DNA from: Gemmatimonadota bacterium
GTDB taxonomy: Bacteria > JBHIER01 > G020348925
NCBI GenBank assembly: GCA_020348925.1
Contig: CP070758.1
Span: 1,770,030-1,834,029 of the forward strand
DNA length: 64,000 nucleotides
Direction of reading: 5' to 3'
The number at the start of each line of letters is the position of its first letter. The stretch's first letter is position 1. Under the pieces are notes generated by a model. The model saw nothing but the letters and a program-made list of their open reading frames with translations. It was not told where the DNA came from and made no database searches. The position numbers and the translations under genes are program-made. Positions 9,643 to 44,685 of the stretch are shown here, one piece after another.

Positions 9643-11169
9643 TCACAGTACTTTCAATACAACCATGGTGATATCATCCTGGTATGAAGCACGCCCTGAA
9701 AACCGCTCCACCTCTTGAAGAATTTTCTCCAATACATCTCCGGCACTGCCCCCTCTTTCCTCCCTTATGATCCGTTCCAGTCTGTCTTCACCAAACATGA
9801 TTCCGTTACTGTCATCCGCCTCTGTGACACCATCCGTATAAAATACGACCACATCTCCGGAGGAAAGTTTCACTTCATCCTCTTCGTGCCGAATGTCATC
9901 CATCACTCCCAGCAGGAGCCCTCCCTTCTCCAAGTGTCGGATCTCTCCCCTGGTGTTGATCAAAACCGGGTAATTGTGACCGGCGTTGGAGAAACGGAGA
10001 CGTTTCTGTTCTGGGTCCAAGACGGCGAGGAAGAGGGTAGCAAAGGTCTCGGGTGTCGTGCTCCGGCAGAGCATACTGTTGAGTCTCGTCATGAGCTCGC
10101 TGACCGATTGGGTGGTCTCCAGCTGAGCCCGAAGCCCTGCCTGAAGCGTGGACATCAACAGAGCTGCCGGAGTACCATGGCCGGTGACATCACCGACGGC
10201 TATCCCTATCTTTCCCTCGTCGCACGGGATATAGTCGTAATAATCGCCGCCGACCTGTGTACTGGGAATATACATTCCCGCAATATCATAACCCCGAAGG
10301 GACGGAGGCCCTTTGGGCAAGAGCGTCAGTTGAATCTCTTGTGCCAGGGCCAGTTCCTTCTCCATCTCCCGTTTCTCCCGCAAGCCTTCGGTCATGAGGT
10401 TGAAGGTTCGGGCCAAATCACCGATCTCGTCGTGCGACTGAATCTCCACCTTCTGATCGAGATCACCTCTCGAGATGCTTCTCATAGCTCCGGCCAACCT
10501 CTCCAGCGGTCTCGTTAGGCGACGACTCAACAACGCCGACATGGTCACACCGACGGCGATATACAGGCTGAGCAGGGCGATGTTGCGCTGAACAGCTCTG
10601 GACAGCTCCTCCCTCATCTTTATGAGAGAAAATCCAACGGTCACACTCCCCAGGTTCAGATCTCCGTATTGAATATCCACGCTGACACGCTCAAGATCGT
10701 CCTGGGACTCCTCGGCCACCATCCCCCGGTCCAATTGGCGCACAACACCCGATCTGGCAACCTCATCGAGGACCTCAAGACCTTCAACATCAATAAGGTT
10801 TTCATTCAGAGCATGCGCTTTCAACTCGTTCTGAACGTCGTAGACCGCGATGTATACGATATCCTCGATGGTTCGCGGCACTTGCTCGATATAATCCTGA
10901 TAGAGTGACCAGTCCTGGGTCTCCAGGAGGCGAATGGAGGCGACATTGCGAGCGATGCGCTGCATCTGATTCTCAACCTCAGCTCGTTTCGTCTCGGTCT
11001 CCCGGATCGTGTAAAAATACGTCACAGAGGCAATTGTGGCGACGATGAAGAATACGACAAGAGCGGTTATCTTCGCATTTAATCCGAGCTTGAAAGGGAT
11101 ATTATAGAGGTTTAAGAGGGGACGAAAGATCCCCCGGATATTTGCAATGATGGTCGTTTTCCGGGCCAT
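9643..11169 (-). CDS. HAMP-domain PP2C (SpoIIE/RsbU-type) serine phosphatase with an N-terminal single-TM sensor domain.
   Basis: One TM (ITALVVFFIVATIASVTYFY). HAMP-like segment (LTRPLERLAGAMRSISRGDLDQKVEIQSHDEIGDLARTFNLM). PP2C motifs (GGDYYDYIP, VGDVTGHGTPAALLMS, FYTDGVTEA, DDITMVVLKVL). Confidence 0.8.
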   Translation of the reverse strand: MARKTTIIANIRGIFRPLLNLYNIPFKLGLNAKITALVVFFIVATIASVTYFYTIRETETKRAEVENQMQRIARNVASIRLLETQDWSLYQDYIEQVPRTIEDIVYIAVYDVQNELKAHALNENLIDVEGLEVLDEVARSGVVRQLDRGMVAEESQDDLERVSVDIQYGDLNLGSVTVGFSLIKMREELSRAVQRNIALLSLYIAVGVTMSALLSRRLTRPLERLAGAMRSISRGDLDQKVEIQSHDEIGDLARTFNLMTEGLREKREMEKELALAQEIQLTLLPKGPPSLRGYDIAGMYIPSTQVGGDYYDYIPCDEGKIGIAVGDVTGHGTPAALLMSTLQAGLRAQLETTQSVSELMTRLNSMLCRSTTPETFATLFLAVLDPEQKRLRFSNAGHNYPVLINTRGEIRHLEKGGLLLGVMDDIRHEEDEVKLSSGDVVVFYTDGVTEADDSNGIMFGEDRLERIIREERGGSAGDVLEKILQEVERFSGRASYQDDITMVVLKVL

Positions 11170-14302: not shown

Positions 14303-14634
14303 ATCGAACTGAAACAATTTAAAGAGTTGAAAACACATACGTCCTTTTTTCTCAATCATAGTAACCCTGAAAAATAGCCTTTTATACCGTCTTAACGCAA
14401 GGAAATTCTTGCGTTCCAGGAAAAAAGAATACCGTAGAGATCTCGTATTGAATCTTGGCACATGCATCACGTTGAAGCGAACCGGAAACTTCTCCATAAA
14501 AAAACCTTGCACATCTTTTCAAAAAAAATTAAGTTATGTAAAATCATGGGGAGGGGGTTGAAACCATCCCACACCCCCGATGAGTGGACTTTCGGTGGAA
14601 ATTTGGACGTTTACAGAGAAAGCAGGAGAGCCCA

Positions 14635-16836
14635 ATGAGAAGACCATTTATTGTGAGCGTAATATTTTTGTGCGTCGTTCTTGTCGCGAGCGTCAGTGCC
14701 CAGAGCCGCACGGATCGCGAGGTGACGCTTGGAGCCAAACTGGAAGCCATCCAGCGAGCTATTCAGGAGAAGGGGGCGAACTGGACCGCAGGTATGACGG
14801 AGATCTTTCAGCTTCCTGAAGAGGAGCGGATGTTGATGTACGGGTGCGCCGATTCCATCTCCCAGGACAAAATCCCGGAGGAGCAGCAGCTCATGCGGTA
14901 CTCGTGGCAGCCGGAGAAATTCGATTGGCGCTTGAAGGACGGCGCGGACTGGACGACACCGGTCAAGAATCAGGGTAGGTGCGGAAGCTGCGTCGCCTTC
15001 GCCACAATCGGAACCCTGGAAGGGCAGCTCAATATTTTCTATGACGACCCGTACCTCAATATGGATCTCTCCGAGCAGTACCTCTTCGCCTGCGGGGGCG
15101 GGACCTGCAATGAGGGTATGAACACCGACCTCGCCTTTCGCTACGTCCTCGGAAACGGCGTTCCGGACGAGGACTGCTTCCCCTATACATCAGGACTGGC
15201 GGGCATCGATAGACCGTGCGGTGACGCCTGCCCCGACTGGCAGGAACGGATCCTCAAGCCCTCCTGTTACGGGGCCGCCGCCGCTGATAAAGACATCAAA
15301 GCACCGGCTGACATCAAAGAGCAGATTCTCCAGGGTCCCGTCTGCGTCACTATGGCCGTCTTCGAGGATTTTGACTCGTACACAGGCGGGATTTACCAAC
15401 ACGTTTGGGGTCAATACGAGGCCGGCCACGCCATCGTTATGGTCGGTTGGGACGACACGACCGAGCCCCCCTGCTGGATTGTCAGAAACAGCTGGGGCTC
15501 CGGATGGGGAGAGAGGGGCTATTTTCGGATACGGATGGGGACGAACGAGGTCGGGATTGAGGACCAGGCCCTCTACGCACGATTCGGCGACGTTCCGGAG
15601 GGAAGGCTCTCGAGCGGTGGCCATCAGTTCGGAGATGTGGATGTGGGAGATTCCGAAAATTGGCTGTTGAACATCTACAATGAAGGAGGTGCTCCCCTAG
15701 AAATATACGAGTACCAATCGAACAAGCCCAATTACTTCATCAGCTCGCCTGCGTCCTTCCCTCAGACTGTCACCCCGGGTGGAACCCTTGGCGTCACTCT
15801 CGTCTTCACTCCTGACACCCTGGGGGAGGAATTCGGCCGCATACGATTCCCGAGCAACAGCTGTCACTTTCTCTCCGTAAAATTGCGCGGGACAGGTGTC
15901 ATCCACAACGTGAGGACAAGTCAGAAATCCATCGAAAAGACCATGGTGGAAGGGGACATCATGACCGTGCCCCTGACCATGACCTACATCGGAGATACCA
16001 CCCTCACCTACCAAGTTGAAATTCTCAGGGAATGGCTCTCTGTTCAACCCGACAGCGGCACACTTGAAACCGGGGGTAGTGTCGATTTCACCGTTACCCT
16101 CGATGCGTCGAACCTGGAACCCGGCGAGTACAGAACAAATATTCTGATCAAAACGGACGATCCCACCGACAAACTCGTCGTCGTCCATATTGTTCTCAGT
16201 ACGGAGGAGGCCGCCGGGGTCGCCCTCACCATCCCGCCCACTGCCATACCCATTGACCGGACAATTCAATTGGGTCTGTCCATCGACAACAAGAACCGCA
16301 TCGAAATGCCCATCAGGGATGTTGCTCTGCACATCGGTTACGATGCGACGTTTATGGAGCTCCGCGAAATTTCATCCACCCTCCGGACCGAGCACATGAC
16401 CGCCTTTCAGTGGTCCGAAGCCGAACCAGGTCAAATTACCCTCTCGATCTCCGACGGCAACGGCAACTGCATCGTTCCCGGAACGGAGCCCATAGCCCAA
16501 TTTTTCTTCGAAGCCCGCGACGGCATATCATGCGGCGACAGCGTGACGCTCACCATCACCGAGGCGACCCTCATAGACACCCTCGGCAGTGCCCTCGAGG
16601 TCCGGCTGAACAACGACCCCTGCCTCCTGCTCTGCAAGGGGGATGTGAACGCTAACGGTACGATAGAGATAGATGATGTTATTGAGGTTATCCGTTTGAT
16701 TCTTGAGAATGGTTGTTTCGAGGAATGGACTCCAGAGTGCTGGTCCTCTGACTACAACGACGACGGAAGCATCGACGCCATGGACCTTGTGTGCATGGTC
16801 AACGTTATCTTGGACAGGGAGGCTGGTTCTGATTGA
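14635..16836 (+). CDS. Secreted papain-like (C1A) cysteine peptidase with an Ig-like/CARDB-like region, a cohesin-like domain and a C-terminal dockerin.
   Basis: RBS aggagag sits 5 nt before the ATG at 14635. Signal peptide MRRPFIVSVIFLCVVLVASVSAQ. Catalytic triad context: QGRCGSCVAF (Cys), GHAIVMVGWD (His), NSWGSGWGERGYFRI (Asn). The ALHIGYDATFMELREI...ITLSISDGNGN segment resembles cohesin. Dockerin: GDVNANGTIEIDDVIEVIRLIL...YNDDGSIDAMDLVCMVNVIL. Confidence 0.8.
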   Translation: MRRPFIVSVIFLCVVLVASVSAQSRTDREVTLGAKLEAIQRAIQEKGANWTAGMTEIFQLPEEERMLMYGCADSISQDKIPEEQQLMRYSWQPEKFDWRLKDGADWTTPVKNQGRCGSCVAFATIGTLEGQLNIFYDDPYLNMDLSEQYLFACGGGTCNEGMNTDLAFRYVLGNGVPDEDCFPYTSGLAGIDRPCGDACPDWQERILKPSCYGAAAADKDIKAPADIKEQILQGPVCVTMAVFEDFDSYTGGIYQHVWGQYEAGHAIVMVGWDDTTEPPCWIVRNSWGSGWGERGYFRIRMGTNEVGIEDQALYARFGDVPEGRLSSGGHQFGDVDVGDSENWLLNIYNEGGAPLEIYEYQSNKPNYFISSPASFPQTVTPGGTLGVTLVFTPDTLGEEFGRIRFPSNSCHFLSVKLRGTGVIHNVRTSQKSIEKTMVEGDIMTVPLTMTYIGDTTLTYQVEILREWLSVQPDSGTLETGGSVDFTVTLDASNLEPGEYRTNILIKTDDPTDKLVVVHIVLSTEEAAGVALTIPPTAIPIDRTIQLGLSIDNKNRIEMPIRDVALHIGYDATFMELREISSTLRTEHMTAFQWSEAEPGQITLSISDGNGNCIVPGTEPIAQFFFEARDGISCGDSVTLTITEATLIDTLGSALEVRLNNDPCLLLCKGDVNANGTIEIDDVIEVIRLILENGCFEEWTPECWSSDYNDDGSIDAMDLVCMVNVILDREAGSD

Positions 16837-18700: not shown

Positions 18701-20761
18701 TTACTTCATGAATACCATACCCCGAGTGGCAGTGAAGCTGTTGGCGTTTATCCTAAAAAAGTACACTCCGCTGGGTAAGTCGGTAGCATCCCAACTGACC
18801 GCGTAGGTGCCTGGTGATTGGTGCGCATCGATCAGCGTGGTTACCTTCTCGCCAAGCAAATTATAAATTTCAAGGGTGACCATACAGTCGGTTGCTATAA
18901 CGTAGTTTATTTTTGTCTGAGCATTGAAGGGATTCGGATAGTTTTGTGATAAAGAGTATTCTCTCAGAGATGTGACTTCTGATTCATTTATTTCAATATT
19001 GGTGGGATTACCTTTTAACCAGTCAATAATACTGGCCAATAAATCTACCTTCATAATTTGAAAATCCGGACGAAGGTTTGTCAAATTTTCAAAGGGAAAA
19101 GCGAAGTAGACCAGTCTATATCCTGCAGCATATTTTAAGCCCGCTGTTTTTCCCGTCTGGGAGTATTCGAACACTGGAGTTGCTCCAAGAAGCGGTGTGA
19201 TTACATCCGGTGATCGCAAGTAGTCATTTTCATTGTTCTCCTGTATAAGTAAAAAACCTGAGATGTCACCGCTAATAGGATCCTCCGGCACGCTGGTAAT
19301 GAACCCGTCCTCCGAGTTATCCTGCATCCATTGAGCGCGGAGGTAATTGGTATAAAAATCCACGCCATTGCCTTTTTCGAATAAATCATACCCTATATCC
19401 TGTCCACAGAGAAAGAGCCGTCCACCATTATCCAAATAGGATATAAGGGAGGCTTGATCATCCTGAATCAGTGTGTTTTCTCTTGATTGCCCCGTAAACC
19501 ATATTACAATCTCGTGTTCATTCAACTTGTTTATGGGGGAACCCTGTCGTTCTACTTCCCAGGTTTGAAATGGGACCGCGTTTTCTGAAAGGCAGTAATG
19601 GTAGATATCTTGATACGTGTCACTACCATCATCGTCTACCAGCAACACCAATGGTTTGCCAATAGTGACGTAAAAGCTGTCGATTTTTGTGTATTCATCT
19701 TGTGTTGTGAAAGTGAGATAAAACTTGGCAAGATGAGTTTCAACGTCTGATTCAATGGAAATAATAAAAGGCGTTTGTGTATTTTCTGTGCTCTCATCGG
19801 GGGATAAATCACCATATTCTACAGTGTCAACTGAAACAACCACAGCGGGATCATCAGTGCTCAATGTTGCCATTAGCCCGAAGATATCGACCCCCGAGCT
19901 TATGATTGCCACCCTCAGTTCCACCGTTTCTCCTGGATCGCTTTGCCCGTTACCATCCCCATTACTCTGTCCGATTGAATCATCATCAACACAATAGTAG
20001 TCGATGTGTACCCTAGAAATGAGTTCGTAGTACTTTACGATAGCTTCAAACCAAACTGACGGACTTTGGATGTGCCAGCCGAAATTCCCAGATGGTCCTG
20101 GTCTACAGCCAGGGTAATAATAGTAGAAGCTATGAAAAGGGGTTGTACCCTCATCTTCAACAGCCCAGCCATGACCTGCCGTTATGTAAGTCGTGATTGA
20201 AATGAAAAATGGCTTGTCCCCAAGATCAATTTCCTTTTGCAGACCAGCTCTTGCAGGAATCTCGAACCATTTCCCAAGGTGATCTTCAGTTATCACAAAC
20301 GGGAATGGGCCCCAGATGTGACGTTCCCGATCGAATTGGTCCCATCCGATTGGCGAATGACCTATCACATTACCGGGGAGCCACTGACCGTCCTCGTCAT
20401 AGCCGATCCAACCGCAACTATCCGTGCTGTCGGTGGTAGTGATGTGGCCATCATAGTGGGAGCCGTCCCAAACATCAGCCAGGCAGGTTCCCTCGTAACT
20501 GTTAGACATGAGCCTCAGTGCGATGAGGGAACAGGGTCCGCTTGGCTGGAACCAAACCGCGATGGATTCTCCTGGACAATATGAGGGAAGTAATACAAGT
20601 GTGGTCGGCTCGTCCAATGTTCTCCAACTGAGCGTGTCATAGTCGCTTCGATTAAGAGTACCACCAGGTCGAAGTACCTCAATTTGACCAGCCACAACTG
20701 AAGTGAAGACGAAAAGTGCAAGAATGCAAAACATGAGGATGATATTCAATCTTTGACTCAT
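18701..20761 (-). CDS. Secreted protein with a T9SS type-A C-terminal sorting domain. The functional domain is unassigned; there is a gingipain/C25-like 'LLVDDDG...VIWFTG...GGRLFLCGQDIGYDLF' region.
   Basis: Signal peptide MSQRLNIILMFCILALFVFTSVVAGQ. C-terminal NYPNPFNAQTKINYV...YNLLGEKVTTLID...PSGVYFFRI is the Por-secretion-tail signature. The gene is AT-richer than its neighbours. Confidence 0.7.
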   Translation of the reverse strand: MSQRLNIILMFCILALFVFTSVVAGQIEVLRPGGTLNRSDYDTLSWRTLDEPTTLVLLPSYCPGESIAVWFQPSGPCSLIALRLMSNSYEGTCLADVWDGSHYDGHITTTDSTDSCGWIGYDEDGQWLPGNVIGHSPIGWDQFDRERHIWGPFPFVITEDHLGKWFEIPARAGLQKEIDLGDKPFFISITTYITAGHGWAVEDEGTTPFHSFYYYYPGCRPGPSGNFGWHIQSPSVWFEAIVKYYELISRVHIDYYCVDDDSIGQSNGDGNGQSDPGETVELRVAIISSGVDIFGLMATLSTDDPAVVVSVDTVEYGDLSPDESTENTQTPFIISIESDVETHLAKFYLTFTTQDEYTKIDSFYVTIGKPLVLLVDDDGSDTYQDIYHYCLSENAVPFQTWEVERQGSPINKLNEHEIVIWFTGQSRENTLIQDDQASLISYLDNGGRLFLCGQDIGYDLFEKGNGVDFYTNYLRAQWMQDNSEDGFITSVPEDPISGDISGFLLIQENNENDYLRSPDVITPLLGATPVFEYSQTGKTAGLKYAAGYRLVYFAFPFENLTNLRPDFQIMKVDLLASIIDWLKGNPTNIEINESEVTSLREYSLSQNYPNPFNAQTKINYVIATDCMVTLEIYNLLGEKVTTLIDAHQSPGTYAVSWDATDLPSGVYFFRINANSFTATRGMVFMK

Positions 20762-22514: not shown

Positions 22515-22937
22515 TCACTTGAATTTGGTCAATGTGATCGTTGTGCCCGAGGAGGTGCTCGATATATCAACCTTATCCATGAGCGTTCTCAAGATGTAGA
22601 GGCCGCGACCGGAGCCTTTCGAGATATTTTTGGGATCTGTCGGATCTTCAACCTTCTCCGGATTAAAACCACCGCCTTCGTCGGTTATCCTCATGACGAT
22701 CCTGTCCTTTCGAGGTTCGAAACGTATGTGCACTTTCTTCCGAGCATCCCCCTTGTTTCCGTGAATAATGGCATTATTGACGGCTTCAGTCACGGCGATG
22801 GCCAAAAAATCCCCTGTCTCCTCATCAAATCCCATATCCCGGACAACCTTCTCAATCTCGGTAACGACCCTGGGCATCCATTTCAAACTGCTGGGTATTG
22901 TCAACTCTTTGTTACGATCGTCTTCCTTTGAGGGCAC
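22515..22937 (-). CDS. Anti-sigma regulatory factor (RsbW/SpoIIAB-like serine kinase, HATPase_c only).
   Basis: 140 aa. AVTEAVNNAIIHGNKGD (N-box). DEGGGFNP, GSGRGLYILRTLMDKVDI (G-boxes). Confidence 0.7.
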   Translation of the reverse strand: MPSKEDDRNKELTIPSSLKWMPRVVTEIEKVVRDMGFDEETGDFLAIAVTEAVNNAIIHGNKGDARKKVHIRFEPRKDRIVMRITDEGGGFNPEKVEDPTDPKNISKGSGRGLYILRTLMDKVDISSTSSGTTITLTKFK

Positions 22938-23388
22938 CGATACTCCTTAGAGAATATTCACGATAGATACTTCATCCAGACCCGTCGCACCGCAGTCGCC
23001 TTTCTCCCCGCACCTTCTCTTGTTTTGGGACCGGATATCCGTATCATTCCCTGTTTAATATAATAACATCACAAATAAATACAAAATATTTAAAGCAGAC
23101 AGAGCAATAAAACGTCTATGTCGAAAGAAGAGACAGCGATTGAAGCCCAAAGGTTTCATCCGCTCCTCAAATATTTCAACATTCAACAGGTTTCAGAGTC
23201 TCAGGTCGATCTTAGTAAAATAGAACCGGAGGGAGTCTTCAGCGCCCAAGTTCTTTTCCCTTGACCATAGGATTGAAGCCATATATATTGGCATCTTGCC
23301 GATGTTCCCAAGCCCCACTGGGAACGGGCACAGTATCTGAACACAGCATTCAAATCTCTCGGGTTCGAGAGCAATTATCGGTTTCACA

Positions 23389-24234
23389 GTGAATCTTCAG
23401 CAACATGGCAGCGTGGCACTCCTCCTCTTTGACTCATTTGATCGATCCGGAAATCTGCTCCAGGCCATGTCGACACGAGGCGGAGGTGTCAGTCAGGGAG
23501 TGTACGGCTCTCTCAATCTCGGCTTCCACGTTGGGGACGACAACGGCGCCGTACTGACCAATCGCAAGCGTTTCTTCCAGACGCTGTCCATACCGTTCGA
23601 ATCGGTTGTGACGGCCCAGCAGGTACATGGGGCAGAGGTGAGGGTGGTTACAGAGCATGATTGTGGAACGGGAGTGAGGAGTTGGGAAGAGGGGCTCCCC
23701 CAAACAGATGCCATGGTTACCGACGTCTGCGATGTCGGACTTTTAGTCCTCGTGGCCGATTGTGCTCCAGTTCTCCTGCACGATCAAAAACGCAAGGCCG
23801 TCGGCATCGCTCACGGAAGCTGGCGTGGAACGGCTGAGGGTATTGCCAGAAACACTGTATTAAAAATGATCGCCGAATTCGGATGTAAACCGGAGAACAT
23901 AAGAGCAGGCATCGGCCCTTCAATAGGTCCTTGCTGCTACCGGGTGGGAGAGGAAGTCATCTCTTGTCTGAAGAACGCAGCCCCGGACATCTGGAATAAC
24001 CTCCTCATTCCCAAAGGCAAAGACACCGTTTTCCTCAACCTGTGGGAGGCGCTCCTGCAGCAATTGATTGAGGCCGGGATACAGAGGGAAAAGATAGAGA
24101 TCGCCGGTATCTGCACAGCATGTCACACCGACCTCTTCTATTCCCACCGAAGGGAGAACGGGAAGACAGGAAGGAACGGGGCCATAATCGCTCTCAGGAA
24201 TCAAGAGGAACACCTTGAAGCCTGTCACGAATGA
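23389..24234 (+). CDS. pgeF: Peptidoglycan editing factor PgeF / YfiH-family purine nucleoside phosphorylase-like (laccase-domain) protein.
   Basis: STRGGGVS, QVHGAEV, DAMVTDVCDVGLLVLVADCAPVLL, GIAHGSWRGTAEGI, IGPCCYRVGEEV are conserved YfiH/DUF152 motifs. Confidence 0.8.
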   Translation: MNLQQHGSVALLLFDSFDRSGNLLQAMSTRGGGVSQGVYGSLNLGFHVGDDNGAVLTNRKRFFQTLSIPFESVVTAQQVHGAEVRVVTEHDCGTGVRSWEEGLPQTDAMVTDVCDVGLLVLVADCAPVLLHDQKRKAVGIAHGSWRGTAEGIARNTVLKMIAEFGCKPENIRAGIGPSIGPCCYRVGEEVISCLKNAAPDIWNNLLIPKGKDTVFLNLWEALLQQLIEAGIQREKIEIAGICTACHTDLFYSHRRENGKTGRNGAIIALRNQEEHLEACHE

Positions 24235-24250
24235 AAAGGATATGGTTCAC

Positions 24251-26842
24251 ATGAAATTATATGCATTCAGCTTCATCATCATGTTCACTGTGATGATGAG
24301 CCCCAAGTGGGCTTCTCCGCTGAAACCGACGGACCGGCAAGAAGATCCTGACACCACGACCTCGACAGTGATGTCCCAGGACACGACGGTGAGGGAAATG
24401 GATTCGGTCGATACTTCGGACACCGGCCAGGAGGAACCGGACACTGCCTCGATTTTCAAGGTACCGCCCGATACTGCGAAGATCCCCCCCGCCGTTCCCG
24501 ACTCAGCCGAAATCGGCCGAGAGGCTCCGGCCATATCAAGAATCGGCCGAAGTGTGCGTGATGCGACACCCGCAGCCGAGAGTCCCGACGACACCAGCGG
24601 TGCCGATGCGATCTCGGCCGATACATCTACTGTGGAAGCGGCTGCTCCAGACACCTCCCTCGATATCACGGCCGAACCTGATACGGCCGGTTTGGTCCGG
24701 CCTGATACCGTCTCTCTGGAGACCGAAGTTGGCCCTGATACGACGGCCTTTGTGGAAGCCCTCATCGACACAATCTTCGGCAGACTCGATACAGCTTACG
24801 TGGGCGAGATCCTCTTTTCGCACAAACGCACCCTGCCGTTCTCTGCGCTCTACACATACAGATATGCCGGCCTGCAGAGTGATACCACCTTCGGTATTGA
24901 GCTCATAACGAACATAATGCAACGGTCGTACAGAAGTCAATTTCAGTATTTTTCAAAAGGCACGAACATTGTGGCTATCGGCCCGTACGACGTTGAGATT
25001 TTTTCCGCCGAAAGCCTACAACTCGTTTTCGAGCCGAAAGGATTTGTGAAACTGCCTGAGCCTGAAATACCGGAACCTGTGGAAGAAATAGTCGAAGCGG
25101 AAACACCGTCCGCAGTGGAACCGACTCAGTTGAAAGCGTCCCCTACGGACCCCAAGGAATATTTCTCGCGCGCCTACATTCGAGCTTCCGAGGGGAACTA
25201 TGGTGAGGCAAAACGTGATTTAGGGAAAATCCTGGAAATGGACTCGACTTTTTTTGAGGCTCGTCTCATGCTCGGATGGATTCTCTCGGAGGAAAATGAC
25301 AGTGGTGCAGTCGAGGTCTTCAGGAAATGTGCTGCCTTGAAACCGGACGATAGAACCGCTTCATCTTTCCTGGCGTACAACCTGAAAAGGTTCGGATCTT
25401 CAGAGGAAGCTTTCGACAGTTACACCGAGATCGTTGCGGAGGACTCATCGAACTCAGGGGCTCTCTTTCACCTGGCCGCCCTCTATGAAGCGAAGGGAGA
25501 TTCCCAAAAGGCCGATCCGCTGTTCGAAAAAGCCCGGAGCATGACACCGGGCATAGACACCACCGCTGCCACGCCCTCCCTTGCGGATATACACCATGAA
25601 TACTGGTGGGTGGAAGAGGGACTTCAGCTCCTTCACTTTGAGGAGCCGGTCTCTCCTGGGTCCGCCGTGGAGGAGAGCCTCGAATGCGACGTGAACGTCT
25701 CCATCCTCGTCGATGAGACCGGAAAACCTGCCGAGGTGACGATAGACGAACCCTGCGTTCATGCCGGTTCGAACGAGGCCATAGAGAGCGCGGCGTGGAA
25801 GTGCACCTTTAGACCAGGTCAGCACAAGGGCAAGCCGGTCCGGGTGTGGGTATCCCTGCCCTTCCGCGTCGAACCGGCGGAGGCGGTGGTGGTCGCAGAT
25901 TCAACGAAAACCACCGAAACAGACACATCGGCGCTTGTGGCAGAGGTTCCGACGGATGTTGATGTCACACAGGCCCCGCTCGATACAGGGGAGGTCAGGC
26001 CGAAACTGGTCGGGTTCATAAAGCCGCATTATCCGCCGCAGGCCCTGGAGGACAGCATCGAGACAACCGTCGTTCTCAGCGTGCTCGTGGGAACGGACGG
26101 GTCCGTCACAGAAGTGAAATTCGTCCGGCCTGACACCTTGAACGAAGCCTTCAACGAAGAGGCGGAGAAAGCCGCCCGCCGATGCCGCTTTCAGCCCGGA
26201 TTGAGAGACGGCTCTCCGGATACGATGTGGACCGAACTTCCTATGACCTTCAGCTTGACATCTCCTCCAACTACTCCTGAAGGCTCTATTCCCCGTCCGC
26301 AGAGAAGACCTCCGGCAAGAGAAGAGAAACCCCCTCAAGCCGGCTCTCAGGATAAGGCCGCAGCCCTGGTTGAGGCAACCATGCTCGCGGCGCAGCAGAA
26401 CTACGATGAGGCCCTTCAAAAATTGACGACGATTTTAAAATCGGATGCCAAGGAAAAAAACGCGCAACTTCTCTACGGCTTAATTATTCTGGCCAAAGAA
26501 GTGGGCAAGAGAGTGGAGGACGTGGCTCCTCTCGCCCATGGCACGGAAGCCGATTCCTATTGGTGGGTCGATACCATGCCGGAGATCAAGGAATTCAAGG
26601 AGGCCGCGTACCCCGAGGCGGTGATAGCTTCAGGGGCAGAAGCGCGTGTCGTGCTCTACGCGCTGGTCAGCGAAAACGGTTCGGTGGAGAAGGTGATTCT
26701 TCTCACTCCGGCGGAAGAGCAGAGCTTCAATGCCGCGGCGGAGGAGGCCGCAAAAGGGTCTACCTTTACTCCGGGCACACTTGACGGTGAACCGGTAAGG
26801 GTATGGAGTCGCCTCTCCTACGAATTCACGCCGAGTGAGTAA
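24251..26842 (+). CDS. Secreted protein with a D/T/P-rich low-complexity linker, TPR repeats and three tandem TonB C-terminal (TonB_C)-like domains.
   Basis: Signal peptide MKLYAFSFIIMFTVMMSPKWASP at the ATG at 24251. Three segments match the TonB_C pattern (hydrophobic ...P.YP + ...G.V.V.F.V..dG.V..V.V.....F..AA..A......F.P...G.PV): about 25650-25870, 26010-26260 and 26590-26830. TPR-like AYNLKRFGSSEEA..ALFHLAALYEAKGD. Confidence 0.65.
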   Translation: MKLYAFSFIIMFTVMMSPKWASPLKPTDRQEDPDTTTSTVMSQDTTVREMDSVDTSDTGQEEPDTASIFKVPPDTAKIPPAVPDSAEIGREAPAISRIGRSVRDATPAAESPDDTSGADAISADTSTVEAAAPDTSLDITAEPDTAGLVRPDTVSLETEVGPDTTAFVEALIDTIFGRLDTAYVGEILFSHKRTLPFSALYTYRYAGLQSDTTFGIELITNIMQRSYRSQFQYFSKGTNIVAIGPYDVEIFSAESLQLVFEPKGFVKLPEPEIPEPVEEIVEAETPSAVEPTQLKASPTDPKEYFSRAYIRASEGNYGEAKRDLGKILEMDSTFFEARLMLGWILSEENDSGAVEVFRKCAALKPDDRTASSFLAYNLKRFGSSEEAFDSYTEIVAEDSSNSGALFHLAALYEAKGDSQKADPLFEKARSMTPGIDTTAATPSLADIHHEYWWVEEGLQLLHFEEPVSPGSAVEESLECDVNVSILVDETGKPAEVTIDEPCVHAGSNEAIESAAWKCTFRPGQHKGKPVRVWVSLPFRVEPAEAVVVADSTKTTETDTSALVAEVPTDVDVTQAPLDTGEVRPKLVGFIKPHYPPQALEDSIETTVVLSVLVGTDGSVTEVKFVRPDTLNEAFNEEAEKAARRCRFQPGLRDGSPDTMWTELPMTFSLTSPPTTPEGSIPRPQRRPPAREEKPPQAGSQDKAAALVEATMLAAQQNYDEALQKLTTILKSDAKEKNAQLLYGLIILAKEVGKRVEDVAPLAHGTEADSYWWVDTMPEIKEFKEAAYPEAVIASGAEARVVLYALVSENGSVEKVILLTPAEEQSFNAAAEEAAKGSTFTPGTLDGEPVRVWSRLSYEFTPSE
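24383..24806 (+). repeat. Low-complexity acidic Pro/Asp/Thr/Ser-rich repeat region ('PDT' motif recurring about 10 times) inside CDS 24251..26842.
   Basis: Recurrent PDT/ADT/SDT tripeptides: PDTTTS, EPDTAS, PPDTAK, ADTSTVEAAAPDTSLDITAEPDTAGLVRPDTVSLETEVGPDT. Matching degenerate ccNgaYacN nucleotide repeats. Confidence 0.4.
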
Positions 26843-26911: not shown

Positions 26912-28093
26912 ATGATCAAAGAAAAGATTACGCAAGCGATAGACATTTTAAAGGAAAAGAACGTCGATGCCTGGTTGACATTCGTCAGGGAAAGCGATAC
27001 CGTCCACGATCCGAGTCTCGACTTCATTCTGGGGACAAGCTGCACGTGGCAGTCGGCTTTCATTATCACACAGGAGGGCCTGACCGCGGCCATTGTGGGC
27101 AGTCTCGACGTGGCCAATATTGAATCGAGAGGGTGTTACGGCGAGGTCATCGGATACAAAGAATCGATCCAGGAGGCCCTTCACGGCGTCTTGCAAAAGC
27201 TCGATCCGCAAACAATCGCCCTGAACTACTCGACGGATTCGCCTTTGGCCGACGGCTTGACCCACGGAATGTATCTCAATTTAATGAAGTACCTCCGGAA
27301 AACGCCTTATGCGAAACGAATCATCTCCGCCGAACCTATCGTGGCCGCCCTTCGGGGGCGAAAATCGCCGACCGAGATCGAACGAATTCAAGAGGCCGTT
27401 CAATTGACCCTGGTCATGTTCGATCGCGTATCAGACTACATCCAGGTGGGACGCACCGAAAAAGAGGTCGCAGCGTTCCTGAAGGAGAAAGTGAAGGAGG
27501 CCAGGGTTGAACTCGCCTGGGACCCTGACTACTGTCCGTCGGTTTTTACAGGCCCTGAATCGGCCGGCGCCCATGCCGGGCCAACCGATCGGACCATCGC
27601 GCGCGGCCACTTGATGAACATCGACTTCGGAGTAAAAAAGGATGATTACTGCTCTGATCTTCAGCGCACCTGGTACGTTCTGCGGGAAGGGGAGGCCGAG
27701 CCGCCTGATGACGTCCGCAAGGCTTTCGACACCATTCGGGAGGCCATTCAATTGGCCGCGGCGCGGCTGAAGCCCGGCGTGGAAGGTTGGATTGTGGACG
27801 ATGTAGCCCGCAGCCATATCACCTCGGCAGGCTACGATGAGTATCCTCACGCCCTCGGTCATCAGATCGGCCGTTTCGCCCACGACGGCGCGGGACTGCT
27901 CTGTCCGAAATGGGACCGGTACGGGAAAATGCCCCATGAAAAGGTCGAAGCACAACAAGTGTATACGATCGAACCGCGGATTACGCTGAAAGAATTCGGG
28001 GTAGCGACAATTGAGGAGATCGTCGTAGTGACAGATTCGGGCTGCCAATTTTTATCAGATCCCCAGAAGGAGATCTACATCATAAAAGAGTGA
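26912..28093 (+). CDS. M24-family metallopeptidase (Xaa-Pro aminopeptidase/creatinase-like), cytoplasmic.
   Basis: RBS ggagg 7 nt upstream. M24 metal-binding motifs: HLMNIDFGVKKDDYCSDLQRTWYV, HALGHQIGRFAHDG, YTIEPRI, EE. Confidence 0.8.
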   Translation: MIKEKITQAIDILKEKNVDAWLTFVRESDTVHDPSLDFILGTSCTWQSAFIITQEGLTAAIVGSLDVANIESRGCYGEVIGYKESIQEALHGVLQKLDPQTIALNYSTDSPLADGLTHGMYLNLMKYLRKTPYAKRIISAEPIVAALRGRKSPTEIERIQEAVQLTLVMFDRVSDYIQVGRTEKEVAAFLKEKVKEARVELAWDPDYCPSVFTGPESAGAHAGPTDRTIARGHLMNIDFGVKKDDYCSDLQRTWYVLREGEAEPPDDVRKAFDTIREAIQLAAARLKPGVEGWIVDDVARSHITSAGYDEYPHALGHQIGRFAHDGAGLLCPKWDRYGKMPHEKVEAQQVYTIEPRITLKEFGVATIEEIVVVTDSGCQFLSDPQKEIYIIKE

Positions 28094-29049
28094 GAAAAGC
28101 GAAAAAAAAGTGAGCAGGCTATAGCCGCTTGAGAGGGACAAAGTAAGAGGAGAAAGGAAGGATAGTATGGGTAGGCTTAATTATCGTTTTGTCAATCAAC
28201 CCCGGCTAGTCACCTGCTCATTTTTTCACTTTTCATGTACGCTATAAATTATCTTCTTAAGTTTCAGCAACCTCCTTGTTACCTTGGAAATCCGGATGAT
28301 GTGACTCTATGGGTAGTATTTATTTTTCTTGTTGACACAATATATAGAGTAATTTGTATTTGTCAAGGTAAAAATGATATTTTTTTTCGAGGTGTAAAAA
28401 CGAACAGCATATTTGTCCGTCGCTTTCAGATCCCCAACAAGGTCTCCGTTGTGGCCTCTCTTCAACCTCGTAATCTTTTGCCGGGCATCCTCCAGGAACG
28501 AAAATCATCCGTTTGATGTCGCCGCTTCAAACCCAACCGGTAACACCGGTTGAAAATGTGCGTCACACCTTTTCATTCTTTCGGAGAATCCAGTTATTCT
28601 TAAGTTATTGTATTCAAAGCATATGTGCCGCTCAGCGGCTCGTCAGGGTGCAACAGCGCTTGCACCGAAAGGGGCCCGGGACTGAGAGTCTGGGAACCGA
28701 TTTTCATCTTTCCGGTCAGCTTCCGGCCGGTTTTTTCCGCAGCGACCTCTCGGCCGATCGAAAGCCTTCTCATTCTGATAGGGATCGTCTTGGCCGTTCC
28801 AGTGCCGATCCTGTGGCAGATCGTGTCCAGGACGAACGGCCCCTGGTTCCGGTCGAGATTTTAAACCATATGAAACGAACTGGTGAACTTTGGGGGGCTC
28901 AATTCTTCATTGTTGCGGACAGGGCCTTTCGGCAACTCCCCGGCCCCACGCCACACCGAGAAGCGAGAGATTTCCAACCTAAGTTTCGCACTTACGGCTC
29001 CACCGCCTGAATCCCAACCTCCACGGGGATCAGAGAAGAGACACAACCG

Positions 29050-34615: not shown

Positions 34616-35496
34616 AGCCGCTTTTCCGGGATAGAGCGAGGCAGCTTCGCAAAAGAGTCCGTAAAGAGTTTGAGTTCTATGTTCTCTCTGAGTTGTTATT
34701 TGTATCCTCCTGTTTTTAAGATCGCCCTGGGATTCCTGGCCCTGAGTGAAACTCTATGGGACCTCTGCCCCGATGAAGAACTTCGTTTAGCTTGTAAATC
34801 TCATAACACTTTCGTCGTCAACGAGCCGATTGCTAAAACGGCTCGACTCGGCAGCGTTTCCTGGGAATCTTTCGCTTTTATGGGCCGTGAAGCCCGTGGA
34901 TTATGCGCGGTACCACTTCAAAGGAATTGCTGGAAGTCTTTTAAGTGTTTGGGTTTTTGGGTCCACAATGATTCCAACAGAGTCAAGGGCAATAACCCCT
35001 GATATGGGCTCGACATCATCAGGGCCGAAGATGATTCTGCCTGCAGTGATATCATCCATGAACTCCAAAACGCAGGCCCAAATTCCAATTCTCTCGGAGT
35101 TCCTTCAGTCGGTTCATAGGTAGTTTTACCTACAGGCATAATCCCTGTTTTCTTGAGCTCCTTTGCGGGAGCGAGACAATCGGACTCCCGGTATAAACCG
35201 AGAAATCTGCCTCACACTTTCCTGGTGAGTCGACTTTGCCCTGACCGTAACCGTAACATACCTCAATCCCATCGTAATCCCTCCCTTACGTATATTAGAT
35301 CCAGACTCGATATTAATAACTTAATACGTGAAAAATCATCCCATTGCACTTTTCCTAACAAATGCAGCACAAACTGTTCTTCACAACAGCGTAATTTTTG
35401 CATGCTAAGTAAAGTCCGTTTTATTATATGTGCAGAGCGCAATAATAATAGTGGGTCGAAATGATTTTGCCAACTCATTTCCAACCTGGTTTATTC

Positions 35497-35608
35497 ATGA
35501 GCTGTCATTCCGGCTGGAATGCCGGAATCTCCTCGATTGATGCACCGGGTTCTCTATTCAGGAGATTCCGGGATAAACCCGGCATGACAGAGTATACAAT
35601 TGCGGGAG
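35497..35608. repeat. Roughly 110-bp nested palindromic element with TGTCAT termini, similar to a REP/MITE-like repeat family.
   Basis: Left arm: ctgtcattccggctggaatgccggaatctcc. Right arm reverse-complement: ctgtcatgccgggtttatcccggaatctcc. Inner perfect 11-bp inverted repeat: ccggaatctcc/ggagattccgg. Each arm also contains its own hairpin (attccggc-tggaat-gccggaat). It lies in a 1.1 kb non-coding gap. Confidence 0.5.
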
Positions 35609-35717
35609 ATACTACCGAACAAAGCTCAACACCAGTATTCATTATAATTCCATAAATATATTCGTGTTACGTTGCGTTTGCAGTGGTTTTTTAAAATTAT
35701 CCAGGCTAAATCCCAAA

Positions 35718-36104
35718 TCATGCCATCGCCACACACTCGATCTCAATTTCGACGTCCTTGGGCAGTCGGGCGACCTGGACGGCGGAGCGGGCGGGTGGGT
35801 TCTTCCCAAAATATTGATCATAGACCTCATTCATGGCGGCAAAGTCGTCCATGTCTTTCAAAAAGACCGTCACCTTCACCACTTTGTCGAGACTCGATCC
35901 CCCGGCCTCAAGGAGGGCCTTGAGGTTCTCCAAAACCCGCCTCGCCTGTACCTGAATATCACCGGAAACAAGCTCTCCTGTCTCAGGATCCATCGGAATC
36001 TGACCGGCCGTAAACAACAATTCACCGCTGCCTACCTTGACAGCCTGACTGTACGGCCCAATCGCCGCCGGGGCCTTGTCGGTTTGGATGACCTTTTTTG
36101 ACAT
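35718..36104 (-). CDS. ridA: RidA (YjgF/TdcF) family reactive enamine/imine deaminase.
   Basis: 128 aa. [49 protein letters not shown] are the RidA signature. Confidence 0.85.
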
Positions 36105-43801: not shown

Positions 43802-43857
43802 AGGGATACCACGTCCCCTGTTCTCGCTCAAATGACTTTGGAGAGGAGGAACTCAAA

Positions 43858-44685
43858 GTGACGCGCAAAAAACAGAAAAAGAGAAAATCAATCATTCGTG
43901 AATATATGGAATCCATCGTCGTGGCCGTCTTTTTGGTCATGTTCATCATCCGCCCGTTTGTTGTTCAGGCATTTCGTATTCCCTCGGGTTCAATGGAGGA
44001 TGCGCTCTTGGTGGGGGATTTTCTCTTGGTCAACAAGTTCATCTACGGAGCGAAGAGTATTGACAGAATTCCCCTCACAAAGATCGATATTCCATATTTC
44101 ACCCTGCCCGCTTTGACCGATCCGAAACCGGGAGACATCATTGTCTTCCGGGCACCGCACGAACCTGATAAGGACTTCATTAAACGGTGTATCGCCGTTC
44201 CAGGCCAGACGCTTGAGATCAAAGACAAAATTGTGTATATCGACGGCAAAAAAATGGAAAATCCACCGAAGGCGAAGCACATCACGAATTATTCCATCCC
44301 CAAGGCGGCCGGTCTTCGTGACAACTTCGGCCCAGCCCGGGTACCGACCGAAGGGGATACCCTCCGTTTCGCCAACTTAAACGAATACGAATATGAGTTA
44401 TTGAGGATGTATCTCGAATACAAGGGAGAGGCCCTGGCAACAAAGGGAAACGGATTTACGTTGAATGGCCGGAGTGCAAACTTTTACATTATGGACGAGG
44501 ATTGCTATTTTATGATGGGCGACAACAGAGACAACAGTCGTGACAGTCGCTTCTGGGGTTGGCTTCCCAGAAAAGACATTCGAGGAAAGGCCCTCATCCT
44601 CTACTGGTCCTGGAACAGCGAGCCACCTCTCTACGACATCTTTCACAAGGTTCGATGGGGTCGCATCGGATGGCTCATCAAGTGA
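43858..44685 (+). CDS. lepB: Signal peptidase I (LepB).
   Basis: A GTG start preceded by the strong RBS ggagaggagg. Basic N-terminus plus TM (RKKQKKRKSIIREYMESIVVAVFLVMFII). Catalytic Ser box IPSGSMEDAL. GDNRDNSRDSRFWGWLP (box E). The six-frame ORF extends upstream to 43528, but that part overlaps the lepA 3' end. Confidence 0.8.
   Translation: MTRKKQKKRKSIIREYMESIVVAVFLVMFIIRPFVVQAFRIPSGSMEDALLVGDFLLVNKFIYGAKSIDRIPLTKIDIPYFTLPALTDPKPGDIIVFRAPHEPDKDFIKRCIAVPGQTLEIKDKIVYIDGKKMENPPKAKHITNYSIPKAAGLRDNFGPARVPTEGDTLRFANLNEYEYELLRMYLEYKGEALATKGNGFTLNGRSANFYIMDEDCYFMMGDNRDNSRDSRFWGWLPRKDIRGKALILYWSWNSEPPLYDIFHKVRWGRIGWLIK

What the first reader, a model, noticed from the sequence alone, without database searches (positions are those of the whole stretch)
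24251..26842. Signal-peptide protein with three tandem TonB C-terminal-like domains, TPRs and a PDT-repeat linker
Canonical TonB has one N-terminal membrane anchor and one C-terminal domain. This 863-aa protein instead has a cleavable-looking signal peptide, a roughly 140-aa acidic PDT/SDT-repeat linker, TPR repeats and three separate TonB_C-like modules. Each module has the hydrophobic-core pattern ...P.YP...G.V.V.F.V...G.V..V.V..S....F..AA..A......F.PG...G.PV.

It could be a periplasmic or outer-membrane-associated multivalent TonB-box binder.
Basis: partly seen in the sequence, partly recalled or inferred. Interest (0 to 1): 0.5.

Follow-up and report, generated by a model that had tools for sequence, protein, structure and literature searches.

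The report
Exported protein with three TonB-type heads
This gene encodes an exported cell-envelope protein with three copies of the TonB docking domain plus TPR repeats but no TonB-type membrane anchor; it belongs to a large, unstudied class of multi-headed TonB-like proteins, so it is real and moderately interesting but not unprecedented.

Summary
ORF 24251-26842 (+) encodes an 863-aa protein. It has a short N-terminal export signal, a 160-aa acidic Thr/Asp/Pro-rich disordered stalk and an 88-aa domain found only in this family. Then come four TPRs, TonB_C 1, TonB_C 2, a two-TPR block and TonB_C 3. Each TonB_C module passes Pfam's cut-off on its own (28.5, 57.2 and 47.4 bits; cut-off 24.6).

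The modules are 33-35% identical to each other. Across six orthologues each is 60-63% conserved, against 29-34% for the linkers.

The protein is already deposited as UCE20034.1, "MAG: TonB family protein [Gemmatimonadota bacterium]". Its full-length family is tiny: six sequences, all in the same pgeF-X-M24 peptidase gene order.

The architecture class is not rare. Of the 154 proteins analysed (the 150 best hits of an exhaustive profile search of 1.84 billion proteins, plus hits of the earlier search), 129 carry at least 2 TonB_C modules and 86 carry at least 3, up to 7. Most have one N-terminal hydrophobic segment, and some also have TPRs. None has been characterised. Two-domain TonB9 and TonB10 of Bacteroides thetaiotaomicron are the published precedent.

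It fails the tests for a canonical energy-transducing TonB. The most likely function is a passive, multivalent envelope adaptor. That is inferred, not shown.

The parts
23261..23289 (+). Promoter-like site (TTGACC-17-TATATT) upstream of pgeF; possible start of a pgeF-X-M24 transcript
   Evidence: Consensus scan. No terminator-like site lies between pgeF, the TonB_C gene and the M24 gene. This is inference only.
23389..24234 (+). Upstream neighbour: PgeF/YfiH-type protein (Cu-oxidase_4), with no export signal; it ends 17 nt before the gene
   Evidence: Pfam PF02578, E 9.5e-82. It occupies the same position in five related loci, L001, L002, L003 and L006 plus the window. In L003 it overlaps the TonB_C gene by 4 nt.
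24251..24313 (+). aa 1-21: N-terminal export signal (MKLYAFSFIIMFTVMMSPKWA), with predicted cleavage after Ala21
   Evidence: It has a 14-residue hydrophobic core and a maximal 19-residue KD mean of 1.3, which is too weak and too short for a membrane helix. Orthologues end in IWA|S, AGA|E and GEA|G. None contains a His. No signal-peptide predictor was available.
24314..24790 (+). aa 22-180: acidic, Thr/Asp/Ala/Pro/Ser-rich disordered stalk carrying 11 D-[ST]-[AILVMT] motifs ('PDT' motifs)
   Evidence: Composition and net charge of -21. pLDDT is about 25. There are 11-16 motifs per orthologue linker against 1.9-2.6 in shuffles, with a shuffle maximum of 7-9. No DNA tandem repeat is present. Length varies from 130 to 253 aa and identity is 34%. 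One site is positionally conserved, DTx[TA][VIL], at ADTSTVEA.
24791..25054 (+). aa 181-268: conserved family-specific domain of unknown fold or function (R193, P196, Y201, Y203, G207, R228, S229, F231, G244, P245 and others are invariant)
25055..25138 (+). aa 269-296: acidic Glu/Pro linker (LPEPEIPEPVEEIVEAE...)
   Evidence: Net charge -7. The PEPEIPEP core is conserved in orthologues.
25139..25570 (+). aa 297-440: TPR block 1 (eight helices, four TPRs)
   Evidence: Several Pfam TPR families hit, for example TPR_19 at 9.4e-11. pLDDT is 85-91. Foldseek matches consensus TPR proteins, the OGT TPR domain and MamA with TM-scores up to 0.93, normalised to the target.
25571..25624 (+). aa 441-458: conserved motif IxHE(Y/F)WWxEE.xxLxHF that links TPR block 1 to TonB_C 1
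   Evidence: H449, W452, W453, E455 and E456 are invariant. A similar YWWVDTMP motif precedes TonB_C 3.
25625..25876 (+). aa 459-542: TonB_C module 1, with three family-invariant Cys (C479, C502, C518)
   Evidence: PF03544, 28.5 bits as an isolated fragment. Mean identity across orthologues is 61%. The Cys positions are conserved, and are repeated in the extra module of P0003.
25877..25999 (+). aa 543-583: variable linker; in orthologue P0003 it holds a fourth TonB_C module
   Evidence: Identity is 30% and length ranges from 31 to 179 aa. The P0003 insertion is seen.
26000..26257 (+). aa 584-669: TonB_C module 2, the closest to canonical TonB, with a YP motif
   Evidence: PF03544, 57.2 bits. 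PDB sequence hits to TonB and TonB2 chains 9ddz_A, 9dc4_T, 2k9k_A, 1xx3_A and 5lw8_A. Mean identity across orthologues is 63%.
26258..26338 (+). aa 670-696: Pro/Arg-rich linker
   Evidence: P8 and R4 in 24 residues (aa 673-696). pLDDT is below 50.
26339..26545 (+). aa 697-765: TPR block 2 (four helices)
   Evidence: TPR_16 at 1.3e-8 and TPR_20 at 7e-8. Helices at 698-761.
26546..26578 (+). aa 766-776: second YWW motif (SYWWVDTMPEI)
   Evidence: Y770, W771, W772, D774, M776 and P777 are invariant.
26579..26842 (+). aa 777-863 plus stop: TonB_C module 3, at the extreme C-terminus, with a YP motif
   Evidence: PF03544, 47.4 bits. Mean identity across orthologues is 60%.
26912..28093 (+). Downstream neighbour: M24 metallopeptidase (Xaa-Pro aminopeptidase-like), with no export signal
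   Evidence: Pfam PF00557, E 6e-43. N-terminus read. The same position is occupied by an M24 gene in L002, L003, L004 and L006. In L001 the equivalent downstream gene is cut off by the contig end and is unannotated.

Best explanation
The gene encodes a Sec-exported envelope protein of an uncultured bacterium, labelled Gemmatimonadota by NCBI. It is not an energy-transducing TonB. It is a multivalent adaptor built from TonB-type docking domains.

After export, an acidic and probably disordered Thr/Asp/Pro-rich stalk and a small family-specific domain sit at the N-terminus. The C-terminal 570 residues form two [TPR block - YWW motif - TonB_C] units with an extra TonB_C between them.

In characterised TonB proteins, the TonB_C domain binds a short extended peptide (the Ton box) by adding it as a strand to its beta-sheet. 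The most likely mechanism here follows from that. Each of the three modules would dock a short extended segment of an outer-membrane or periplasmic partner. The TPR blocks would hold further partners. The protein would thereby cluster, tether or sequester partners without drawing on the proton-motive force.

Shown here: the domain architecture, purifying selection on all three modules, the absence of TonB anchor features, and membership of a large class of exported multi-TonB_C proteins. Inferred: periplasmic location, signal-peptide cleavage, peptide binding by beta-augmentation, and the identity of the partners.
For: - **Three modules.** Each TonB_C module is above the Pfam cut-off on its own and has the expected predicted fold.
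- **All modules maintained.** The modules are anciently duplicated, at 33-35% mutual identity. All are equally conserved among six orthologues, at 60-63% against 29-34% for linkers. That includes the C-terminal strand region (VxVW, DTMWxELP). None is a decaying copy.
- **No TonB anchor features.** The N-terminus has a short hydrophobic core with small residues at -1, no His, and no 19-residue window above KD 1.3. Pfam finds no TonB polyproline region.
- **No linked Ton genes.** No ExbB, ExbD, Plug or TonB-dependent receptor domain occurs in any non-overlapped ORF of at least 150 aa in the 64-kb window, nor directly beside the gene in six related loci.
- **Consistent with a periplasmic location.** Three invariant Cys in module 1 would fit an oxidising compartment.
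- **A recurrent design.** Of the 154 proteins analysed (the 150 best hits of an exhaustive profile search plus hits of the earlier search), 129 have at least 2 modules and 86 have at least 3. Pfam confirms 3-5 TonB_C stretches in every multi-module hit sampled, and TonB_C in all 79 proteins of the >=3-module set. 85 of the 129 have only a single or short N-terminal hydrophobic segment. TPR plus 4-5 TonB_C occurs in two further hits, P0016 and P0022; P0016's 90% cluster includes Zixibacteria-labelled sequences.
- **Published precedent.** Dual-TonB_C proteins TonB9 and TonB10 of B. thetaiotaomicron are described as uncharacterised (PMC10350073).
Against: - No binding partner is identified and no binding was tested.
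- The conserved neighbours, PgeF and an M24 peptidase, lack export signals and give no link to outer-membrane transport.
- Orthologue P0008 has a 19-20-residue N-terminal hydrophobic stretch with no cleavage-like site, which looks like a membrane anchor.
- Residues reported as conserved in functional TonB C-terminal domains (E. coli Gly174, Trp213; PMC10350073) are replaced in all three modules.
- The rest of the 5-Mb genome could not be inspected for exbBD, tonB or receptors.
Confidence: 0.45

Rival explanations
1. It is a genuine but unusual TonB paralogue. The N-terminal hydrophobic segment stays uncleaved as an inner-membrane anchor. The long acidic Thr/Asp/Pro-rich stalk plays the part of TonB's periplasm-spanning spacer. 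The protein would be energised by ExbB/ExbD encoded elsewhere and could engage up to three receptors at once.
For: - The overall order, hydrophobic N-terminus then long disordered spacer then a TonB_C at the extreme C-terminus, mirrors TonB.
- P0008's N-terminal segment is long enough for a membrane helix.
- A short conserved PEPEIPEP stretch recalls TonB's Glu-Pro repeats.
- tonB genes are often unlinked to exbBD (PMC10350073).
- NCBI annotates the protein as a TonB family protein.
Against: - The window protein's hydrophobic core is only 14 residues and is followed by Pro and a WA|S site.
- No orthologue has the His found in the TonB anchor.
- There is no PF16031 hit.
- TPR blocks and a folded domain interrupt the 'spacer'.
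- No exbB or exbD occurs in the window or in six related loci.
Confidence: 0.2
2. It is a structural cell-envelope scaffold related in logic to Tol-Pal/CpoB. TolA-like heads and TPRs would link the outer membrane, peptidoglycan-associated proteins and cell-wall enzymes. It would be co-expressed with the peptidoglycan-editing factor PgeF.
For: - The pgeF-X-M24 gene order is conserved across loci whose X proteins are only 41-69% identical. pgeF is present in L001, L002, L003 and L006, and in L003 it overlaps X by 4 nt.
- No terminator-like site lies within the cluster.
- TolA's C-terminal domain shares the TonB_C fold, and CpoB is a TPR protein (PMC12204202).
- Weak NCBIfam similarities to GltE (a TPR lipoprotein) and to the AgmX/PglI TonB_C-like tail of the Myxococcus gliding machinery.
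Against: - PgeF and the M24 peptidase have no export signals, so a physical link is unlikely.
- The shared gene order may simply be inherited within one lineage.
- No tolQRB or pal genes are nearby.
- There is no PF06519 TolA hit for the window protein.
Confidence: 0.15
3. It is a periplasmic decoy or regulator. Soluble TonB_C heads would compete with the cell's real TonB for receptor Ton boxes and damp TonB-dependent uptake or signalling. The outcome differs from the main explanation, but it uses the same binding mechanism.
For: - The same architectural evidence as the main explanation applies.
- From my own knowledge, not checked here: periplasmic expression of TonB C-terminal fragments inhibits FhuA- and FecA-dependent transport in E. 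coli (Howard et al. 2001, J Bacteriol).
- One other multi-TonB_C protein (P0015) sits directly after an ECF sigma factor and a 154-aa gene, a signalling-type context.
Against: - There is no regulatory context at this locus.
- The gene order with housekeeping genes suggests constitutive expression.
- TPRs and the N-terminal domain are unnecessary for a simple decoy.
Confidence: 0.1

Closest known systems
Canonical TonB (E. coli TonB; Pfam TonB_C PF03544)
   Same: The C-terminal domain family is the same. Module 2 matches solved TonB and TonB2 chains by sequence. The YP motif is present in modules 2 and 3. The last module lies at the extreme C-terminus, and a long non-globular region follows the N-terminal hydrophobic segment.
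   Different: There are three heads instead of one. The N-terminus is a short signal-like segment without the anchor His. There is no polyproline region. Two TPR blocks and an extra folded domain are inserted. No exbBD is linked.
Dual-TonB_C proteins of Bacteroides thetaiotaomicron (TonB9 BT3896, TonB10 BT3898)
   Same: More than one PF03544 domain sits in one polypeptide, and the function is uncharacterised (PMC10350073).
   Different: Those have two domains and no TPRs, and TonB10 has a BlaR1-type M56 membrane domain. The paper states that the dual architecture 'seems to be limited to the Bacteroidetes'. The present protein is labelled Gemmatimonadota and has three modules, or four in P0003.
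Uncharacterised metagenomic multi-TonB_C proteins (e.g. P0009 with 5 modules, P0011 with 4, P0016 with TPR plus 5, P0022 with TPR plus 4, P0054 with BamD-like TPR plus 3)
   Same: They combine one N-terminal hydrophobic segment with 2-7 TonB_C modules, sometimes with TPRs.
   Different: They share only the modules, with E no better than 2e-77 against 5e-268 or better within the family. They lack the DT-rich stalk, the N-terminal domain and the YWW-linked units, and their gene contexts differ.
BlaR1/M56-TonB_C sensors
   Same: TonB_C modules are used outside a TonB context. 14 of the 79 proteins with at least 3 modules carry Peptidase_M56.
   Different: The window protein has no M56 domain and no polytopic membrane region.
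TolA / CpoB of the Tol-Pal system and GltG/GltJ-GltD/E of the Myxococcus gliding machinery
   Same: They combine TonB_C-fold heads with periplasmic TPR proteins in envelope-spanning assemblies (PMC12204202; PMC11761067).
   Different: In those systems the heads and TPRs are separate proteins, and the heads are motor-coupled through membrane helices. Here they are fused in one exported chain with no motor genes nearby.

Membership tests
Energy-transducing TonB (TonB-ExbB-ExbD system) | N-terminal transmembrane helix of about 20 residues carrying the conserved His that couples to ExbB/ExbD | tested here: not met
   The hydrophobic core is 14 residues and the best 19-residue KD mean is 1.3. There is no His in the N-terminal segment of any of five full-length orthologues. 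P0008 does have a 19-20-residue stretch, but without His. No dedicated topology predictor was available.
Energy-transducing TonB (TonB-ExbB-ExbD system) | Proline-rich periplasm-spanning spacer (PF16031 in enterobacterial TonB) | tested here: not met
   There is no PF16031 hit at E<=1. An acidic Thr/Asp/Pro-rich stalk and a short PEPEIPEP stretch are present instead. The spacer is also absent from B. thetaiotaomicron TonBs, so this feature discriminates weakly.
Energy-transducing TonB (TonB-ExbB-ExbD system) | TonB_C (PF03544) domain at the C-terminus with a YP motif | tested here: met
   Three domains are above the cut-off, and the last ends at the C-terminus. YP is present in modules 2 and 3. 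Module 1 has SP in the window protein and YP in most orthologues.
Energy-transducing TonB (TonB-ExbB-ExbD system) | Partner genes exbB/exbD and TonB-dependent receptors in the genome, often nearby | tested here: inconclusive
   None occurs in the 64-kb window or beside the gene in six loci. One receptor lies 5 kb away in L004. The rest of the genome could not be read, and tonB genes are often unlinked.
Energy-transducing TonB (TonB-ExbB-ExbD system) | Binding of receptor Ton boxes and pmf-dependent transport | not testable with these tools
   This requires complex prediction or experiment.
Exported multi-TonB_C proteins (uncharacterised class; B. thetaiotaomicron TonB9-type) | Two or more PF03544 domains in one polypeptide | tested here: met
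   There are three in the window protein and three or four in orthologues. Hits of the exhaustive search carry 2-7.
Exported multi-TonB_C proteins (uncharacterised class; B. thetaiotaomicron TonB9-type) | A single N-terminal hydrophobic segment (signal peptide or anchor) with no polytopic membrane domain | tested here: met
   The same holds for 85 of 129 multi-module proteins.
TPR-repeat proteins | Tandem 34-residue helix-turn-helix repeats | tested here: met
   Pfam TPR families hit, the AF2 helices have pLDDT 85-91, and Foldseek matches consensus TPR structures.
BlaR1/M56-TonB_C sensor proteins | Peptidase_M56 membrane domain N-terminal to the TonB_C | tested here: not met
   There is no PF05569 hit.
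TolA (Tol-Pal) | TolA C-terminal domain (PF06519) and tolQRB-pal gene context | tested here: not met
   There is no PF06519 hit for the window protein and no tol or pal genes in the window.
Bacteroidota-type general O-glycoproteins | Exported protein carrying the D-(S/T)-(A/I/L/V/M/T) sequon | tested here: met
   There are 19 sequons, 11 of them in the stalk, which is 2.2 per 100 aa. The other 33 ORFs of the window have 0-0.87 per 100 aa. The sequon is defined in PMC8550257.
Bacteroidota-type general O-glycoproteins | Presence of the O-glycosylation machinery in the organism, and actual glycan attachment | not tested
   The genome outside the window was not available, and the system is only documented in Bacteroidota.

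The most novel reading that the evidence does not exclude
The protein may be a non-energised periplasmic 'Ton-box organiser' that gathers or sequesters several outer-membrane receptors at once, with its own stalk taking part. The stalk could be a heavily O-glycosylated spacer, which would extend the Bacteroidota-type D-(S/T)-x glycosylation code to another phylum. Alternatively, the positionally conserved DTx[TA][VIL] site could act as an internal pseudo-Ton box that occupies one head until a partner displaces it.
Probability: 0.1. Interest if true: 0.7.

Novelty: new variant of a known kind. Interest (0 to 1): 0.35.

Why it matters
TonB_C domains are almost always discussed as the single head of an inner-membrane energy transducer. 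This locus and the search around it show something else. Many bacteria encode exported proteins with two to seven such heads, sometimes fused to TPRs, without the features that couple TonB to its motor. None of these has been studied.

If the heads bind Ton boxes, these proteins could cluster, tether or block outer-membrane receptors. That would be an unrecognised layer of control over nutrient uptake and envelope organisation.

The window protein is a well-defined representative. It has six orthologues, all three modules are under selection, and the gene order is conserved, so it could be used to test the idea. The blanket database label 'TonB family protein' should not be read as 'a TonB' when counting Ton systems in genomes.

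Tried and rejected
- **Whole-model fold search** (Foldseek against PDB). It returned only TPR proteins, so it confirms the TPRs and nothing more.
- **The 88-aa N-terminal domain.**
  - No Pfam hit at E<=1.
  - The PDB profile search gave nothing below E 1.2.
  - hhalign against the rest of the protein found only the self-match, so it is not a degenerate TonB_C.
  - The word-index homology search with the domain found nothing, not even the parent protein. That is a limit of the tool.
  - The AlphaFold-database fold library was unavailable.
  - Conclusion: a domain of unknown function.
- **Stalk as an array of Ton-box-like motifs.** Two Ton-box-style patterns occur 0-2 times per linker, no more than in shuffles. 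Only one positionally conserved DTx[TA][VIL] site remains as a lead. The lineage's own receptor in L004 has a different Ton box, SEIVVTPG.
- **True tandem repeat in the stalk.** None at the DNA level.
- **Gene neighbourhood as a functional clue.**
  - At this locus the neighbours are PgeF, an M24 peptidase, HflX and an anti-sigma-type kinase. All are cytoplasmic housekeeping or regulatory genes.
  - Contexts of other multi-TonB_C proteins are heterogeneous: DUF4384 operons, an ECF sigma pair, and T9SS cargo nearby.
- **Ordinary TonB.** Rejected on the anchor, the spacer and the architecture.
- **BlaR1-type sensor and TolA.** Rejected for lack of their defining domains.
- **Literature.** Searches found no characterised exported multi-TonB_C protein.
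- **RNA features.** Rfam and tRNA scans of the window were empty.


Full report
**1. The observation**

The ORF at 24251-26842 (+) is real and encodes 863 residues. A longer TTG-initiated reading begins at 24215 and would overlap the upstream gene.

Pfam finds TonB_C (PF03544) in three separate stretches. I scanned the three regions as isolated fragments. Each exceeded the curated cut-off of 24.6 bits: 28.5, 57.2 and 47.4 bits. NCBIfam's tonB_Cterm model also reports three stretches.

The modules match one another by BLASTP at E 1e-16 to 1e-18, with 33-35% identity. AlphaFold2 gives each the expected strand-helix-strand topology at pLDDT about 70-88.

TPRs occur in two blocks. The first is four repeats at aa 297-440, with pLDDT 85-91 and Foldseek matches to consensus TPR proteins. 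The second is a shorter four-helix block at aa 697-765.

The acidic linker exists: aa 25-165 has net charge -21 and is rich in T, D, A, P and S. It is a biased region with a recurring short motif and not a tandem repeat.

**2. Anatomy**

In order along the protein:

- aa 1-21: a short N-terminal hydrophobic signal
- aa 22-180: the acidic stalk
- aa 269-296: a Glu/Pro linker
- aa 297-440: TPR block 1
- aa 441-458: a conserved HE(Y/F)WW motif
- aa 459-542: TonB_C 1, with three invariant Cys
- aa 543-583: a variable linker
- aa 584-669: TonB_C 2
- aa 670-696: a Pro/Arg-rich linker
- aa 697-765: TPR block 2
- aa 766-776: a second YWW motif
- aa 777-863: TonB_C 3, running to the C-terminus

The protein is thus two [TPR - YWW - TonB_C] units with an additional TonB_C between them.

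Across six orthologues, mean identity is 60-63% for the three modules, 58% for the TPR blocks, 52% for the N-terminal domain and 29-34% for the linkers. All three heads are therefore maintained by selection. One orthologue, P0003, has a fourth head. It is a copy of the module-1 type, including its three Cys, inserted in the first inter-module linker.

**3. The N-terminus**

The hydrophobic core is 14 residues and is followed by SPKWA|S. The best 19-residue Kyte-Doolittle mean anywhere near the N-terminus is 1.3. Three other orthologues have similar short cores ending in IWA|S, AGA|E and GEA|G.

These look like Sec signal peptides, but I had no dedicated predictor, so this is inference. The most divergent orthologue, P0008, instead has a 19-20-residue stretch with no cleavage-like site. 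An uncleaved anchor therefore remains possible for at least part of the family. None of the segments contains the His characteristic of the TonB anchor.

**4. The stalk**

The recurring 'PDT' motif fits D-[ST]-[AILVMT]. Each orthologue's stalk has 11-16 copies, against about 2-2.6 in composition-preserving shuffles, where the maximum was 7-9. The whole protein has 2.2 copies per 100 residues. The other 33 ORFs of the window have 0-0.87.

This three-residue pattern is the published O-glycosylation sequon of Bacteroidota (PMC8550257). Whether this organism has such a system is untested.

I also asked whether the stalk is an array of Ton-box-like motifs. Two Ton-box-style patterns are not enriched. 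One site, ADTSTVEA and its equivalents, is conserved in position in all five stalks.

**5. The N-terminal domain**

**6. Relatives and context**

The identical protein is deposited as UCE20034.1, 'MAG: TonB family protein [Gemmatimonadota bacterium]', on a 5.04-Mb contig.

An exhaustive profile search of 1.84 billion representative proteins found only four full-length family representatives. Scores then fall from E 5e-268 to 2e-77. With two closer sequences from the first search, the family has six members. Only one lies in a GTDB species-representative genome.

All six loci share the order pgeF - X - M24 peptidase, apart from elements cut off by contig ends. hflX and an anti-sigma-type kinase sit upstream on the other strand. 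In one locus pgeF overlaps X by 4 nt. In the window there is a promoter-like site upstream of pgeF and no terminator-like site inside the cluster, so co-transcription is likely. PgeF and the M24 peptidase have no export signals, and the shared order may simply be inherited.

No ExbB, ExbD, Plug or TonB-dependent receptor domain occurs in the window. One related locus has a receptor 5 kb away, with the Ton box SEIVVTPG.

**7. The wider class**

Beyond the family, the hits of the exhaustive search are dominated by proteins that match through several TonB_C modules.

I built an HMM from the family's modules. Of the 154 proteins in hand, 129 have at least 2 modules and 86 have at least 3, up to 7. 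Pfam confirms this. It reports 3-5 TonB_C stretches in every multi-module hit sampled. All 79 proteins with at least 3 modules and at most 1000 aa hit PF03544. Of those, 14 also carry Peptidase_M56 and 9 carry TPRs, six of which are the family itself.

Of the 129 multi-module proteins, 85 have only a single or short N-terminal hydrophobic segment, and 21 are polytopic. TPR plus 4-5 TonB_C recurs in two further hits, P0016 and P0022, and P0016's 90% cluster includes sequences labelled Zixibacteria.

The contexts of these other proteins vary and do not include exbBD.

In the literature I found only the note that B. thetaiotaomicron TonB9 and TonB10 carry two TonB_C domains. The paper calls this an architecture that 'seems to be limited to the Bacteroidetes', with no known function (PMC10350073).

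**8. Interpretation**

The protein fails the tests for a canonical TonB on the anchor and the spacer. It passes only on the C-terminal domain family.

The best-supported reading is an exported, non-energised, multivalent adaptor. Its three heads would each dock a short extended peptide by strand addition, as TonB_C does with Ton boxes, and its TPR blocks would bind further partners.

The binding mechanism, the partners and even cleavage of the signal are inferred. Three rivals remain:

- a membrane-tethered multi-headed TonB paralogue
- a Tol-Pal-like structural scaffold
- a decoy that competes with TonB

**9. Verdict**

The protein is a new variant within the known TonB_C-domain world. It is a small, well-defined family inside a large, unstudied class of multi-headed exported proteins. 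Interest is moderate. The architecture is not unique and is already labelled, loosely, in databases, but no member of the class has a known function.

Noticed in passing
window 5812-6825 (+), 14584-16836 (+), 46319-48691 (+), 49259-51319 (+), 18701-20761 (-): Several large secreted-looking proteins combine dockerin type I domains with Ig-like domains and C-terminal FlgD_ig or Por_Secre_tail (T9SS-type) sorting domains. One is a papain-family protease with BACON and dockerin domains. This suggests an FCB-group organism with an elaborate surface or secreted proteome.
   Followed up: no
window 426-2861 (-), 9643-11169 (-), 22515-22937 (-): Two SpoIIE-type PP2C phosphatases, one with a HAMP domain, and a HATPase_c_2 anti-sigma-type kinase look like parts of partner-switching regulation. 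The kinase gene keeps its position upstream of pgeF in related loci.
   Followed up: partly
P0003 (locus L002 3649-6639): One orthologue has a fourth TonB_C module. It is a duplicate of the module-1 type, including its three Cys, inserted in the linker after module 1. Head number therefore varies within the family.
   Followed up: yes
loci L008 (6946-9353) and L009 (2649-7498); unnumbered JGI contig of P0015: Other multi-TonB_C proteins have recurring contexts of their own. One is a DUF4384 protein, a 100-aa gene, a further gene (single-TonB_C in L008, without a Pfam hit in L009) and then a 4-5-module protein. Another is an ECF sigma factor, a 154-aa gene and a 3-module protein, which looks like a signalling cassette.
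   Followed up: partly
window 34616-35717: About 1.1 kb between an AMP-binding enzyme gene and a RidA-like gene (35718-36104, -) has only short overlapping ORFs, no Rfam match at gathering threshold and no tRNA. It may be non-coding or hold an unrecognised small gene.
   Followed up: no
window 28094-29049: Downstream of the M24 gene, GC content drops to about 0.41 over 28000-28499. Only weak ORFs without Pfam hits are present (28235-28516, 28513-29010), along with strong promoter-like matches on the minus strand.
   Followed up: no
window 41996-43801 (+) and 43528-44685 (+): The longest ORF for the signal peptidase I gene (GTG at 43528) overlaps the end of lepA by about 270 nt. The true start is probably further downstream.
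   Followed up: no
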